Source: Octopus vulgaris (taxonomy: Eukaryota). Taken from it: 64,000 bases of DNA. The stretch is from contig OX597830.1 of the NCBI GenBank assembly GCA_951406725.2, positions 8,742,001-8,806,000 on the forward strand. Reading direction: 5' to 3'. Position 1 is the stretch's first letter. Every line of letters starts with the position of its first letter. Under the pieces are notes generated by a model, which was given only the letters and a program-made list of their open reading frames with translations, made no database searches and was not told where the DNA came from. This document shows positions 6,289 to 16,130 of this stretch, piece by piece. The translations under genes and the position numbers were made by a program.

Positions 6289-6342
6289 AACAAAAACTGT
6301 CCGACGAACGGGAACGTGAAACTCAGAGTAACAGGTTTTGTT
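6289..6342 (+). ncRNA. Minimal type I hammerhead-like motif (CCGACGA core)
   Basis: Stem I AACAAAAACTGT/ACAGGTTTTGTT (11 of 12 pairs); CCGACGA 6301-6307; stem II ACG-GGAA-CGT; GAAA 6318-6321; stem III ACTC-A-GAGT; GUA site. Lies between two (TA)n tracts. Confidence 0.7.
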
Positions 6343-6577
6343 GAATTTCTGCTGCTTTTACATAAAGCATATTACTCTACCCCTAGTATTTGAGTACTCT
6401 TTTTTCCACCTTGTTTCACATTTATGTGTTTACACCGGTATATATATATATATATATATATATATATATATATATATATATATATATATATATATATATA
6501 TATATATATATTAATGAATCTTAGAGGTGTCTGCATCAATTTGAGAGTTTGAAAAGCGGTTATATGGCCTCCACCAT

Positions 6578-6641
6578 TAGAGTCTGACTAGTGGTCTATA
6601 AAGCTAAGCGCCTTATGGATGCGAAACCACTGGTCACTCTA
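6578..6641 (+). ncRNA. Hammerhead-like motif with degenerate core (CUGACUA)
   Basis: Stem I TAGAGT/ACTCTA; CTGACTA 6584-6590; stem II GTCTATAA(A)G/CTTATGGAT; GAAA; stem III ACCA-C-TGGT; GUC site. Confidence 0.5.
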
Positions 6642-7629
6642 TGACCGGACACATATTTTACAGCATGGAAATATATTACTGATGCATGCTTTAAAGTGTA
6701 CCTTTTTTTCGTCCATATATACATATATATATATATATTTACTCATACATACATATATATATATTACATATATAAACCCATACATACATATGTATATATA
6801 TATATACAAGCAAACAGACACACAGAAACACGCACAGACAAACTCCCGTTTATATATAGATATATATATATAATATATATACATATATATATATATATGT
6901 ATATATATATATATGTATATATATATATATATATATATATATATATATATATTTTGTGTGTGTGTGTGTGTGTGTGTGTGTGTGTGTGTGTGTGTGTGTG
7001 TGTGTGTGTGTGTATGCGTGTGAATACATATATACATATATATATATATATATAACCTTTCTTTCCTTCCCTGAGCTAATACTTTACATGTAGCATACCT
7101 CGCGTTGTTGGTTTTTTTGGTTGTTCTTTGTTTTTTGGGATTTACTATATATATATATAGTAACGTGTATTTCACGTTATTTATTTATGTAAAGGTTTAT
7201 TATATATATATATATATGCACCAATACTCACGAACACATGTATGTATGTATACACATGCAAACACTCATGTTTCTCGTTAAGTAAATCGGGTGTTTACTT
7301 AAGAAGAAAAACATGTTGACGCTTATACTTGAAAAACCAAAATATATTAATTTTGATACATATATTTATGCATGTGTGAAGGAACGCCTATACGCATGCA
7401 CACATGCATGCGTACATACATACATACATACAGAGAATTACATATGCACATACATACATGCGTATATACATGGTATATATAATAACAGGTAGTTGGATAT
7501 ACCATTATGTATTTACGTAATGTGGGCATATACATTATGTACACACACACACACACACACACACATATATATATATATATATATATATATATATGTGTGT
7601 ATATGTGTGTGTGTGTGTGTGTGTGTGTG

Positions 7630-8100
7630 TGTGTTCTTTTATTTGTTGCGGTCATTAGAGTGCGGCCATGCTGGGGCATCGCCTTGAAGAAATTGTAGTC
7701 GAACTAATCGACACCAGTACTCTATTTTTTTTCCTTAAACCTGCTGCTTATTCTATCGATATCTTTTGCCGAACCCCTAAGTTATGGAGACATGAACACA
7801 TCAGCACTGGTTAAGTACTGGGGTGGGGGGAACAAACAAAGACACATACACGTATATACATACATACATACATACATACATACATACATACATACATACA
7901 TACATACATACGTACATACGTACATACATACATATATAAATAAATAAATATATATATATATACTACGGTCTTCTTTCAGTTTTTCGTATACCAAATCTAC
8001 TCACTGGATTGTGGTCGGCTGGAGGCTATAGTAGAAGACACTTGTCCAAGGTGTCACGCAGTGGGACTGAACCTGGAACCATGCCGTTCTAATCACACAG
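7630..8100 (-). mobile_element. SINE family A (diverged)
   Basis: Both conserved halves are present, separated by (TACA)n. Confidence 0.75.
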
Positions 8101-8802
8101 CAAAAGATATATGTTCCGTATATATGTATATACATATATATATATATATATATATATATATATATATATATATATATATATATATATAGAGAGAGAGAGA
8201 GAGAGAGAGAGAGAGAGAGATAGAGAGAGAGAGAGAGAGAGAGAGAGAGAGAGATGAATATAAGCAGGGTTTGGGGTCTGAAAATACTTCCTATGAGCGA
8301 GAAACCCAGGGTAACCCCATAAACCGGCCTACCTCACTATAATATATAGAGAGAGATAAGATAGATAGCTATAAGCATATACATATATGTGCGTGTGGGT
8401 ATGCGTCTATGTGTATTTAATGTGTCCACTGTGTGTGTGTTTTGTGCGTGTGTGTATGAGTGCAAGTGTGTGTGTATATATAAACATCGAAAATATTCGA
8501 TTCGTATGAGTTGGAACCTTTGACGAAATTTATCAGACATTCTTCAGATACGAAGTCAAACACACACACGCACAGAAACACACACGGAGCCTCAGTACAC
8601 TCACACACACATATGCATATACACACATATATAGATACAGATAGCAACGTAGACCGATAGACAGACAGATAGAGAGAGATAGATGGATAGACAGATAGAT
8701 TGACATATATATATATATAAATATATATATATGTGTGTGTGTGTGTGTATAGATGTATGTGCGTGTATGTGTGTGTGTGGTTGCGTGTATATATATATAT
8801 AT

Positions 8803-12943: not shown

Positions 12944-12959
12944 CTCAGTCAGGCGTGAC

Positions 12960-15190
12960 TGCTGCCTCTGCTACTGCTGCTGCCGCTGCCGCTGCCACTG
13001 CTGCTGCCGCTGCTGCTGCTGTTGTTGCTGCTGCTGCTGCTACTGTTGTTGTCGTTATCGTTGTTGTTATTACAGTTGCTACCGCTTCAACTATTGCAGT
13101 TGTGGTTGTAGCTACCGTGGTGGTGGTGGTGGTGGTGGTGGTGGTATTGGCTAATGTTGTAGTGTCACCACCTGCAATCAACATCAACATATCCAGTCAC
13201 TGTTGTGGTTGTGGCTGCAGTTTCCATGGTAATGCTATTGGTGTTGTTGTTGTAATAGTAGAGACGTTGAAAGCGGTTCTGGTGGTATTGATGGTAGTGG
13301 TAGTAGTAGTAGTAGTAGTAGTAATGGTGGCAGTGGTGGTGGTAGTGGTTGCGGTAGTGGTGGCGATCGTTGTGGTGGTCGTTGTGGTGGTCGTTGTGGT
13401 TATGGTGATAGCGGTGGTGGTGGTAGTAGTAGTGGTTGTGGTTGCGGTGGAGGTGTTGGTGTTGGTGGTGGTAATGATTGTGGTGGTGGTGGTGGTGACG
13501 ATAATGGTGGCGGTGGCGGTGGACGTTATGTTCTTCGTGGTGTTGTTGACAGTAGTAATGATGATGATGAGTGTTGTTGTTGTTACTGCTGATGTCGTAA
13601 TGGTGTTGACAGCAGTGGTGGTGGTTGTAGTGGTGGCGGCGGCAGTTGTGGTGGTGGTGGTGGTGGTGGTGGTGGTGGTGGTGGTAGTAGTGGTGGTGGT
13701 GGTGGTGGTGGTGGTGCTGATGATGACGGCACCACTGCTGTGGCTGCGTCTGCTGCTACCAATGTTGATTGTGATGATGATGATGACGATGATGATGATG
13801 GCATCTGTTATACACAGAACCTACACAAAAACGATACGGTGGGGGGGAGTGGGTGGAGGAATCGAACGCGTTAAAGGTGTCGTCGATGACGTCACTGCAT
13901 GGGCTCCACCTCGTCACCACATCTTAGCACTGCTGTGACGTCACTTTCACACATGACGTCAACCTCACCTCCGCCACCGCCTCCTTCATCTTACAAAATA
14001 CCGTCTTCTTCTTCACGGACACTCTCTTCGCTGCCGTTGTTGTTGTTCCTGTTGTTGTTGTTGTTGTTGATGATGATGATGACGATGATGATGATGTCAT
14101 TGCTGTTTTCGTTGATGTTGTTGTTGTTATAACCACTGCTGTTATTATTGTATTGGTTGTTGTTGTCGTCGTTGTTAATGATGATGATGATGATGATAAC
14201 GCAGTCGTTGTAGATATCACTGCTGCTGCTGGTGGTGGTGCTGGTGGTGCTGCTGCTGTTGTTGTTGTTGTTGTTGATATCACATGTTACTCGTTCGTGT
14301 CCAACACCAGCCAGTCGCTCTGGCTCTGGTTATTTTCTCGTTTGCTAAAACCTACTACTACTACTACTACTACTACTACTACTACTACTACTACTACTAC
14401 TTACTACTACTATTACTACTACTACTACTATCGACAATAACAAACGCGATAACCACTGCCGCCGTCGGTGTTAGTTTCATCATCATTCATCATCATCATC
14501 ATCATCATGAAGAACACAATCATCCATTATATCTCTGTAATCATCATCATCATCATCATCAACACCATCCTTCTCTTCAATCTCCTCGTCTTCCTATCAT
14601 CGCAATTCATCAACGTCATCATCACCATCATCATCATCATCATCATCATCATCCCATCATCACCACCACCACCACCACGACCATGATGGCACCACCACCA
14701 CCACCACTATTATCATCAGCAGCAGTAGCAACAGCATCACTATCACTGCGACCAGGACGATGACGACAACGACCACTACCACCTACCCCCCCCCCCCCCC
14801 AACACAAGTCCACATCACCACCACCACCACCACCACCACCACCACCACCACCACCACCACCACCACCACCACCACCACCACCACCACCACCACCACCACC
14901 ACCATCACCACCACCACCACCACCATCAACACCACCACAACCGCCACCACCCTCAACAACATACCATCCGCACAAATTATTCAATGGAGGTGTGAGTTAC
15001 CATGGCCACGCCTCTTAGTTTATGAGGTGTTGGTGAGCGCGGGGAGATGTGTGTGCGTGTATGTGGGAGACGGGGAGGGAGGGAGGGAGAGAGAACTAGG
15101 TGACTTTATAGTTGTTGTTGTCGTTGTGTTTTTGTTGTTGTTGTTGTTGTTGGTGGTGGTGGTGGTGGTGGTGGTGGTGATGGTGATATA
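12960..15190. repeat. Trinucleotide-repeat mosaic (CTG/GTG/GAT/CAC/CTA) upstream of the engrailed ATG
   Basis: Continuous runs of triplet repeats interrupted by short unique islands. Confidence 0.85.
13887..13961. promoter_or_regulatory. Cluster of three perfect CRE (TGACGTCA) sites upstream of the engrailed ATG
   Basis: TGACGTCA at 13887-13894, 13936-13943 and 13954-13961. Confidence 0.5.
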
Positions 15191-15758
15191 GGTTTCTGCT
15201 TGACCACGTGACTTATCGCCCAAGGTACTCACAAAATACCGAAAGATTTCTTTGGCAACATTTAAAACCACGAATCTGAGATAGAGTAAGGTTTTCTGGG
15301 GCCTGTTGTTGGTAGCCTCTCTGTGAGTGCCTGTGTGCGTGTGTGTGTGTGTGTATACACATACATACATACATACATACATACATACATACATACATAC
15401 ATACATACATACATATATATGCGTACACACATATATATATATGCATGCATATATGCATGTGTGTGTATGTGTGAAAAATTAATCAAGGGACATACTAAGT
15501 ATGTCTACCTGCTGGAAATAACAGTCAAAACTCTTATTTAAATCGCCAAATTACGTCAGATAATAACGGAGTCAATGGTATTTTAGCAAATTAACTTTTC
15601 GTGAATTATTTACTCCGTGTATATATATATATATATATATATATATATATATATATATATTGATAAAACGGTAAGATAACAAAAGAAAGAAAGAGACCTC
15701 AATATTATGTAAATAGAGGAAATTTATCTATACAATATGTTACATTACTCGGTAGTCA

Positions 15759-15821
15759 AGATAAAACTCTGAGTTTCAGATGCCGAAGTGGAAATCCACA
15801 ACACCATCTCTTCGGTTATCT
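15759..15821 (-). ncRNA. Hammerhead-like motif (CCGAAGA core)
   Basis: Minus strand: AGAUAA-CCGAAGA-GAUG...CAUCU-GAAA-CUC-A-GAG-U-U-UUAUCU. Confidence 0.65.
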
Positions 15822-16063
15822 GGCTCTTTTCATAGAATAATCTATGTGATATGCGTCCATATTAGATTCTTTTGTTTGTGAGAGTCCTCAACCGATGTTA
15901 GGCGATAATCCCAAAAAGGTCGTATTAGCTCTTAGTTGAGAATAACGTCGTCCGGGAGGTGATTTATTGATAAAACGGTAAGATAACAAAAGAAAGAAAG
16001 AGACCTCAATATTATGTAAATAGAGGAAATTTATCTATACAATATGTTACATTACTCGGTAGT

Positions 16064-16130
16064 CAAGATAACCGAAGAGATGGTGTTGTGGATTTCCACT
16101 TCGGCATCTGAAACTCAGAGTTTTATCTTG
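16064..16130 (+). ncRNA. Hammerhead-like motif (CCGAAGA core), inverted copy
   Basis: CAAGATAA-CCGAAGA(16072-16078)-GATG...CATCT-GAAA(16110-16113)-CTCAGAG-T-T-TTATCTTG. Confidence 0.65.

What the first reader, a model, noticed from the sequence alone, without database searches (positions are those of the whole stretch)
6289..16130. CCGANGA (U4->C) core in three different families
6289-6342 (CCGACGA), 10024-10058 (CCGACGA) and 15759/16064 (CCGAAGA) have different stems I and II but the same C at position 4. T->C creates a CpG, the opposite of the usual decay direction, which suggests a tolerated or selected variant. The 6289 copy is the cleanest, with 11 of 12 pairs in stem I, a GGAA tetraloop in stem II and a GUA site.
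Basis: partly seen in the sequence, partly recalled or inferred. Interest (0 to 1): 0.7.

Follow-up and report, generated by a model that had tools for sequence, protein, structure and literature searches.

The report
Penelope hammerhead ribozymes with C4 core
These four motifs are the tail ends of jumping genes (Penelope-like retrotransposons) that carry a hammerhead RNA motif in which one normally fixed core letter reads C instead of U in thousands of genomic copies; the swap is likely tolerated rather than favoured, and cutting is untested.

Summary
Confirmed. The cores at 6301(+), 10054(-), 15815(-) and 16072(+) are type I minimal hammerhead motifs at the 3' ends of Penelope-like elements. 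Two families (6301; 15815/16072) are Hydra-clade, one (10054) is Neptune-type. C4 is inherited from source elements, not copy decay. At least 9,341 and 5,511 genomic copies carry it, including intact tandem elements of both clades. In 100-row samples C4 was 86% (family 3), 64% (family 2) and 41% (family 1). Trees suggest U-to-C in families 2 and 3, an older gain in family 1, and a return to U in family 1's youngest, largest subfamily. No other conserved core position changed at subfamily level, so the core looks constrained while position 4 toggles. 'Tolerated' is supported; 'selected' is not shown, and the CpG argument is weak. No cleavage evidence was obtained. Hammerheads in these elements are published. 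U4C is in print for a viroid and RNA-virome hammerheads, and this scan noted it in phages. I found no report of it in animal retroelements, but the key 2017 paper was unavailable. Modest novelty; a natural test of whether cleavage matters to Penelope elements.

The parts
6275..6439 (+). Family 1: 5'-truncated 3' end (pLTR with tail) of a Hydra-clade Penelope-like element, between (TA)n runs
   Evidence: 86% identical over 6275-6372 to the 3' end of the ORF-bearing element L065; the 3' end matches the longer of two family end points
6289..6342 (+). Type I hammerhead motif. Stem I 6289-6300/6331-6342; core CCGACGA 6301-6307 (C4 = 6302); stem II 6308-6317; GAAA 6318-6321; palindromic stem III 6321-6329; predicted cut after 6330
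   Evidence: dimer fold predicted
9923..10137 (-). Family 2: ~215-bp pLTR unit of a Neptune-type Penelope-like element, flanked by (TA)n
   Evidence: shared 5' start, mostly next to TA-rich repeats, in the 30 loci fetched by that start (796 exact matches); 88-89% identical to both pLTRs of the ORF-bearing element L246
10024..10058 (-). Minimal hammerhead motif. Stem I GTTT/AAAC; core CCGACGA 10054-10048 (C4 = 10053); extra A; stem II GAGC/GCTC; no stem III loop (ACGT palindrome); predicted cut after 10028
   Evidence: matches the min-HHR consensus of Cervera 2014 Fig. S3 except at position 4
15655..15829 (-). Family 3: 3' end of a Hydra-clade element with hammerhead core CCGAAGA 15815-15809 (C4 = 15814), predicted cut after 15765, and ~105-nt tail
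   Evidence: 98.9% identical to the intact 2.58-kb tandem element L171; covariation across subfamilies
15827..16071 (-). Family 3: piece running from the base after the predicted cut site through the tail, the 5' UTR and the first codons of the RT-endonuclease ORF
   Evidence: 100% identical over 245 nt to L171; its start lies inside a 6-nt stem I overlap with the next part, so the junction is ambiguous
16066..16162 (+). Family 3: inverted 5'-truncated copy with core CCGAAGA 16072-16078 (C4 = 16073), predicted cut after 16122, ending at the shorter 3' end point before (TA)n
   Evidence: 100% identical over 97 nt to L171; inverted arrangement typical of PLEs

Best explanation
The four motifs are hammerhead RNA motifs at the 3' ends of Hydra-clade and Neptune-type Penelope-like retrotransposons, and their C at position 4 is a source-element variant that is likely tolerated, nearly neutral, in a ribozyme predicted to cut slowly and only as a dimer. 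Shown: family membership, copy numbers, C4 in intact tandem elements, and two 3' end points before (TA)n in families 1 and 3. Inferred: reverse transcription starts about 40 or 105 nt downstream of the motif on uncut RNA, so every insertion carries the motif whether or not it cuts well. Inferred: position 4 changed at least four times in source lineages (U to C in families 2 and 3 and on the stem of family 1, C back to U in young family 1) while the other conserved core bases stayed fixed. That pattern implies selection for a still-working core and weak selection on U versus C. Predicted: lone copies such as 6289 and 10024 are inert relics; cutting would need two motifs on one tandem transcript pairing through the palindromic stem III.
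For: C4 copies: 9,341 of 16,071 and at least 5,511 of 9,470. With the core left free, the first 100 rows, counted by hand, give C4 in 86, 41 and 64. Every hammerhead in the Hydra-clade tandem array L171/L172 (717-codon open frames) and in Neptune-type elements L246, L249, L251, L252 (816-1061 codons) is C4; ORF-bearing family 1 elements L061, L065, L066 are U4. On trees with position 4 masked, the label clusters (0 of 500 shuffles as low). The C4 groups of families 2 and 3 are the less diverged ones (mean distance 0.088 vs 0.132; 0.064 vs 0.19-0.23); in family 1 the U4 group is (0.039 vs 0.11-0.20). All 26 Hydra rows in Craig 2021 File S2 have U4, including a coral element sharing family 1's inner stem I and stem III arms. 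Family 3 stems covary (score 1 of 500 shuffles; 5 pairs changed on both sides). U4C lowers activity in vitro but sufficed in vivo for a viroid (Perreault 2011). Ribozyme-dead PLE RNA inserts normally in vitro and uncut RNA is the main substrate (Frangieh 2024).
Against: No cleavage was measured. Comprehensive mutagenesis of another hammerhead found low activity for single mutants in the CUGA turn (Roberts 2023 passage; the U4C value itself was not seen). Trees are midpoint-rooted, short, with many weak branches; loci were chosen by pattern and mostly from one contig. Published U4-only lists come from descriptors that require U4. Family 1 shows no covariation beyond shuffles. A 5'-junction test found no clear peak at the cut site (4 of 35 family 3 loci start exactly there; 6 of 38 family 1 loci within -2..+1). 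One older family 3 copy also has C4 (L183), so the number of origins is uncertain. Near-neutral and mildly selected cannot be told apart from four events.
Confidence: 0.58

Rival explanations
1. Selected attenuation: the reverse transcriptase needs an uncut template, so slower ribozymes would be favoured, and U4C is a repeatedly used brake.
For: Almost all copies keep the motif whole: only 35 loci genome-wide fit the family 3 short-junction pattern against 4,479 whole motifs. C4 lineages are the younger and larger ones in families 2 and 3. Uncut RNA is the dominant substrate in vitro. Young U4 family 1 has lost the first stem II pair and can misfold as a monomer.
Against: Family 1's most numerous subfamily (57 of 100 rows) is U4, and in the dimer calculation its core is the more open with U4 (0.86 vs 1.45 kcal/mol). 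A fourth family is U4 in 53 of 56 rows. All published Hydra and min-HHR representatives are U4.
Confidence: 0.15
2. Misfold relief: with stem III reading ACUCAGAGU, a U4 core (CUGA) can pair with UCAG and lock the ribozyme, and C4 would have been selected because it breaks that pairing.
For: Predicted cost of opening the core as a monomer is about 2-2.6 kcal/mol higher with U4 when the loop is A, and at most 0.8 higher when it is U. In family 3 the order appears to be U4/loop U, U4/loop A, C4/loop A, and the advantage persists in the dimer (3.6 vs 5.4).
Against: In family 1, C4 predates the A loop and the young lineage has U4 with the A loop. The effect is small or reversed in family 1 and 2 dimers. 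A published Hydra element has U4 with the same stem III (Penelope-3_HM).
Confidence: 0.1
3. The ribozyme is dead or dispensable in the C4 lineages; the remaining core is kept by short time or by another role (protein binding, promoter).
For: Naiad elements proliferate without canonical hammerheads. Catalytic mutants do not affect insertion in vitro and no RNA ends were found at the site in Anolis. CUGA-turn mutants are mostly of low activity. No genomic cut-site signature.
Against: No other core position changed at subfamily level in 300 rows, although C4 subfamilies of family 1 have diverged by about 20%. Return to exactly U in family 1 and stem covariation in family 3 fit a live catalytic constraint.
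Confidence: 0.14
4. Chance look-alikes or random decay of U4 copies.
For: Rfam gives no hammerhead match, and monomer folding z-scores are unremarkable for three of the four motifs.
Against: Thousands of exact copies against reversed-pattern controls of 0-10. The motif sits at a fixed position in intact elements. C4 is linked to subfamily markers.
Confidence: 0.01

Closest known systems
Hydra-clade PLE hammerheads (Craig et al. 2021, PMC8557442; read: passages of the main text, supplement parts 1-2 with File S2, a term search of the supplement)
   Same: Short (<3 kb) element, RWK, DKT, CxCX5C, CxxC and CxH motifs, (TA)n targets, 3' type I hammerhead with palindromic stem III and often an extra base on both sides of stem II. 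Hydra-2_aMil shares family 1's inner stem I and stem III arms. An octopus member is listed.
   Different: All 26 Hydra rows (25 families) have U4; families 1 and 3 here have C4 in large lineages. The listed octopus motif differs in sequence from both.
Minimal hammerheads of metazoan PLEs, incl. Neptune (Cervera and De la Pena 2014, PMC4209133; read: main text parts 1-2 of 4, supplement parts 1-2 of 3)
   Same: Family 2 fits the consensus: short stem I, extra base after A9, G10.1-C11.1, no loop III, palindrome, obligate dimer.
   Different: None of the 56 representatives in Fig. S3 has C4; the core variant named in the text is U3-A8. The search descriptor fixed the core.
Natural U4C hammerheads: viroid variant (via Perreault et al. 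2011, PMC3088659; passages and section 8) and deep-sea RNA-virome hammerheads searched as CYGANGA (PMC13481778; passages)
   Same: Same substitution. Reported to lower activity in vitro yet suffice in vivo (viroid), and to be the one degenerate C/U position of the motif (virome logos).
   Different: Those are viroid or virome motifs. Here it is fixed in source lineages of animal retrotransposons, in dimer-type motifs, at more than 14,000 copies. The original viroid paper (PMC147498) was not held.
Small dimeric PLE-associated hammerhead variants (Lunse et al. 2017, PMC5785218; not held, seen only as cited in PMC6765202)
   Same: Short palindromic stem III, dimer cleavage, PLE association.
   Different: Whether its alignments include C4 could not be checked; this bears directly on novelty.

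Membership tests
Type I hammerhead ribozyme | Three stems around C3-U4-G5-A6-N7-G8-A9, G12-A13-A14, A15.1-U16.1, H17 | tested here: met
   Met at all positions except U4; stem III is marginal as a monomer
Type I hammerhead ribozyme | U at position 4 | tested here: not met
   C in all four window copies. A known natural variant, so it is filed as a variant, not a canonical member
Type I hammerhead ribozyme | Stem covariation | tested here: inconclusive
   Present in family 3 (1 of 500 shuffles, above all slid controls; related sequences can exceed shuffles); absent in family 1 (198 of 500); family 2 not counted
Type I hammerhead ribozyme | Match to an Rfam hammerhead model | tested here: not met
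   No hammerhead family at E up to 10 for 6270-6430 or 15665-16155; none among the 150 of 566 rows shown for the whole window
Type I hammerhead ribozyme | Site-specific self-cleavage | not testable with these tools
   Only assembled contigs were served; genomic junction test inconclusive
Dimer-type (minimal) PLE hammerhead | Palindromic stem III allowing a double hammerhead | tested here: met
   ACUCAGAGU self-duplex -7.4 kcal/mol, ACGU -1.7; core-open dimers with intermolecular stem III for families 1 and 3. For family 2 the core-open dimer costs about 6 kcal/mol and the short stem III was not formed in the model
Hydra-clade PLE (family 3) | <3 kb, single ORF, RWK, DKT, CxCX5C, CxxC and CxH, no GxKF/Y, C-terminal GIY-YIG | tested here: met
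   2.58-kb unit; motifs at residues 46, 123, 566, 669, 700; GIY-YIG E=0.014, below Pfam's cut-off; definitions
Hydra-clade PLE (family 1) | Same motif set | tested here: inconclusive
   42% identical to family 3 over 501 aa; CxxC and CxH present; first Cys of the linker motif not matched in L065; N-terminus not recovered
Hydra-clade PLE | Placement in an RT phylogeny with reference Hydra proteins | not tested
   Reference proteins were available only as paper text
Neptune-type PLE (family 2) | GxKF/Y and DKG motifs, CX2-5CxxC linker, RT plus C-terminal GIY-YIG | tested here: met
   GLRF 175, DKG 288, YIDD 530, CSRSRCNTC 751; RVT_1 E=0.001 and GIY-YIG E=0.01, both below cut-off. Neptune versus Nematis not separated by a tree
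Penelope-like element (all) | Tandem pLTR arrangement, inverted 5'-truncated copies, optional 3' tail, (TA)n targets | tested here: met
   Tandem arrays; two 3' end classes in family 1 (25 at 30-49 nt, 21 at 100-119 nt, of 54) and family 3 (24 and 26 of 54); family 2 mostly one class (57 of 67 at 90-119 nt)
Non-LTR retrozyme | Short non-coding tandem repeats, each with a canonical monomer-active hammerhead | tested here: not met
   Copies are dispersed 3' remnants of coding elements; the tandem units carry ORFs

The most novel reading that the evidence does not exclude
Penelope-like elements tune their ribozyme downward under selection, because their reverse transcriptase must copy through an uncut motif. 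U4C is a recurrent brake, gained independently in two clades and exchanged for other brakes (loss of the first stem II pair, core-stem III mispairing) where it reverted. This would explain why these hammerheads are both conserved and poor cutters.
Probability: 0.15. Interest if true: 0.6.

Novelty: new variant of a known kind. Interest (0 to 1): 0.33.

Why it matters
The role of hammerheads in Penelope-like elements is an open question (stated in PMC8557442 and PMC11167929). Sister subfamilies that differ at position 4, with intact elements of both states in one genome, give a ready natural comparison of cleavage rate against transposition success. Searches that require CUGANGA would miss more than 14,000 motifs here, so published counts of animal PLE hammerheads are likely too low. 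The elements and their ribozymes are otherwise of known kinds.

Tried and rejected
Rfam scans found no hammerhead model; microsatellites dominate the whole-window result. The repeat finder was swamped by microsatellites. Expression and cleavage: no RNA holder listed on record, only contigs. Contigs of four other organism labels show no change at 15814, and four guessed-RNA runs show C-to-T at 6302 in 7-29% of depth; neither shows RNA ends. The 5'-junction test gave no clear peak (hand-tabulated, all 88 rows = 35 loci for family 3, first 100 of 484 rows = 38 loci for family 1), and TA microhomology confounds it. The piece at 16071 starts exactly after the predicted cut, but the junction lies in a 6-nt stem I overlap, so it was not counted as evidence. 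The dimer columns were wrong (monomer energies halved) and were replaced. The idea that family 2 is an orphan SINE-like element was rejected once its unit was found flanking Neptune-type ORFs. The protein atlas gave no answer. Papers not held: Lunse 2017 and Ambros 1998. Searches for U4C in PLE or octopus hammerheads returned no such report. Figure S6 of Perreault 2011 and the supplements of Roberts 2023 and the 2026 preprint were not read. A homeobox exon was not found by motif in the window or the 60 kb before it.
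Full report
Observation. The window is part of a 2.8-Gb, microsatellite-rich animal genome; 'octopus-like' is the wording of an earlier scan note and my recalled impression, not tested here. The four cores are present as described: 6301(+), 10054(-), 15815(-), 16072(+). A descriptor written after seeing them finds 4 in the window and 0 in each of 200 shuffles. A fourth family at 54514(+) and 23918(-) has the canonical CTGATGA. Rfam has no matching hammerhead model.

What they belong to. Family 3 (15815/16072) is 99-100% identical to an intact 2.58-kb element found in a tandem array. That element has a 717-codon open frame with the RWK, DKT, CxCX5C, CxxC and CxH motifs that define the Hydra clade. 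The window copy holds the 3' end, an inverted second 3' end and a piece with the 5' UTR and first codons. Family 1 (6301) lies about 1.06 kb behind an RT-endonuclease frame 42% identical to family 3 and shares its stem III. Family 2 (10054) is a ~215-bp unit between (TA)n runs. It is also the pLTR of ~6-kb Neptune-type elements with GLRF, DKG and CX4CxxC motifs and weak RVT_1 and GIY-YIG hits. Families 1 and 3 end at two points about 40 and 105 nt behind the predicted cut site, as expected from the two reverse-transcription starts reported for another PLE (PMC11167929, part 1 of 4 and passages).

Is C4 the consensus? Genome-wide, 9,341 of 16,071 motifs with the shared stem III have C4, and 5,511 of 9,470 family 2 motifs are one exact C4 sequence. 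With the core left free and only flanks fixed, the first 100 rows (contig 1 only, hand-counted) give C4/U4/other of 86/13/1 in family 3 (4,479 total), 64/35/1 in family 2 (7,990) and 41/59/0 in family 1 (6,966). In family 1, 57 of the 59 U4 rows belong to one young subfamily; the 6289 copy's subfamily is C4 in 11 of 12. All hammerheads beside the intact family 3 frames of L171/L172 and the Neptune-type frames of L246, L249, L251 and L252 are C4. One Neptune-type N-terminal locus with a family 2 unit downstream, L253, is U4.

Direction. On trees with position 4 masked (42, 55 and 51 rows chosen by pattern; midpoint root; many weak branches), C4 nests inside U4 in families 2 and 3, and U4 nests inside C4 in family 1. 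Within-group distances agree. All 26 Hydra rows of Craig 2021 File S2 have U4, one with family 1's inner stem I and stem III arms, so C4 is likely derived in family 1 too. That gives at least four source-level changes at position 4, one of them back to U. Scattered exceptions (L169, L001, L183) may be further origins. In the same 300 rows, changes at other conserved core positions are scattered and mostly CpG decay (for family 2: G5A 6, G8A 6, G12A 6, C7T 5); two older family 3 rows share G8A. I infer purifying selection on the core with U/C tolerance at position 4. Transitions are also the commonest mutation, and the families were picked because of C4.

The CpG argument. Copies inherit the state of a few source elements, so copy number does not count mutations. 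After insertion the new CpG decays like its neighbours (G5A in 5 of 64 C4 rows versus 1 of 35 U4 rows). The argument therefore shows neither selection nor anything unusual about direction.

Structure. Family 3 stems I and II covary across 14 rows; family 1 does not beyond shuffles (16 rows). Many published Hydra motifs have an extra base on both sides of stem II, which fits the variable first pair of family 1 and the extra pyrimidine of family 3. Stem III is a palindrome that pairs well between two copies, so activity is predicted only in tandem transcripts. With the A loop, U4 can mispair with stem III; C4 relieves this in monomers and in family 3 dimers, but not consistently in families 1 and 2.

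Cleavage. No raw RNA reads were available. Insertions whose 5' end abuts (TA)n near the motif show no clear peak at the cut site (4 of 35 loci exactly there in family 3; 6 of 38 within -2..+1 in family 1), and such insertions are rare against thousands of whole motifs. This fits copying from uncut RNA, as shown in vitro for the anole element, where ribozyme-dead mutants insert normally. It does not show whether C4 motifs cut.

Comparison with what is known. PLE hammerheads, their dimer requirement and low activity are published (PMC4209133; PMC6765202 passages). U4C is known from a viroid, with lower in vitro but sufficient in vivo activity (PMC3088659), and as C/U degeneracy in virome hammerheads (PMC13481778). 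Seven paper searches found no report of C4 in animal PLEs. A 2026 octopus repeat annotation does not contain the word ribozyme in its main text (PMC13282606, term search). The 2017 survey of small PLE hammerheads could not be read. Also seen: bioRxiv 10.64898/2026.07.22.740005 part 1 of 5; passages of PMC9901934, PMC3376415 and PMC7229834.

Verdict. Real, explained, and a new variant of a known kind. Tolerated U/C toggling is the best reading (0.58). Selected attenuation (0.15), a dead ribozyme (0.14) and misfold relief (0.10) remain open until cleavage is measured. Interest 0.33.

Noticed in passing
window 10925-12970 (-): 682-codon low-complexity open frame with FTIDEILKPEFG and WPAWVYCTRYSDRPSSG followed by a GT, resembling (recalled) the first exon of an engrailed gene. 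No Pfam or PDB hit; no homeobox exon found by motif in 60 kb downstream. If real, the 10054 motif would lie sense in its intron.
   Followed up: partly
window 54514 (+), 23918 (-), related pieces at 23826-24258 and 54058-54270: A fourth PLE-like hammerhead family with canonical U4, in inverted pairs; 3 of 56 genomic rows have C4.
   Followed up: partly
L035 and L045 (also L181, L182): A further family with the same stem III, C4 core (CCGAAGA), a TGG/CCA stem I and a T.T base to stem II; parent not found.
   Followed up: no
rows ending GAAACGCGT (e.g. L089, L099, L106): Other minimal-hammerhead families with AT-rich long stem II show both C4 and U4, so the toggle extends beyond the three families.
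   Followed up: no
L171/L172 (G000:C1:57208881-57222551): Array of six family 3 motifs: four in one direction, two inverted, unit about 2,580 bp, several intact frames; a very recent complex insertion.
   Followed up: partly
L246, L249-L252: Neptune-type elements with a ~3-kb microsatellite-rich 3' UTR and ~6.1-kb tandem unit; the youngest have a GUC triplet and a mismatched stem I.
   Followed up: partly
window 16472-16531 (-): Decayed relative of family 2 that has lost the first half of the core.
   Followed up: no
window 61891-62420: 261-bp inverted repeat whose arms each contain CTGAAGA...GAAAT with a partial stem; possibly another PLE end.
   Followed up: no
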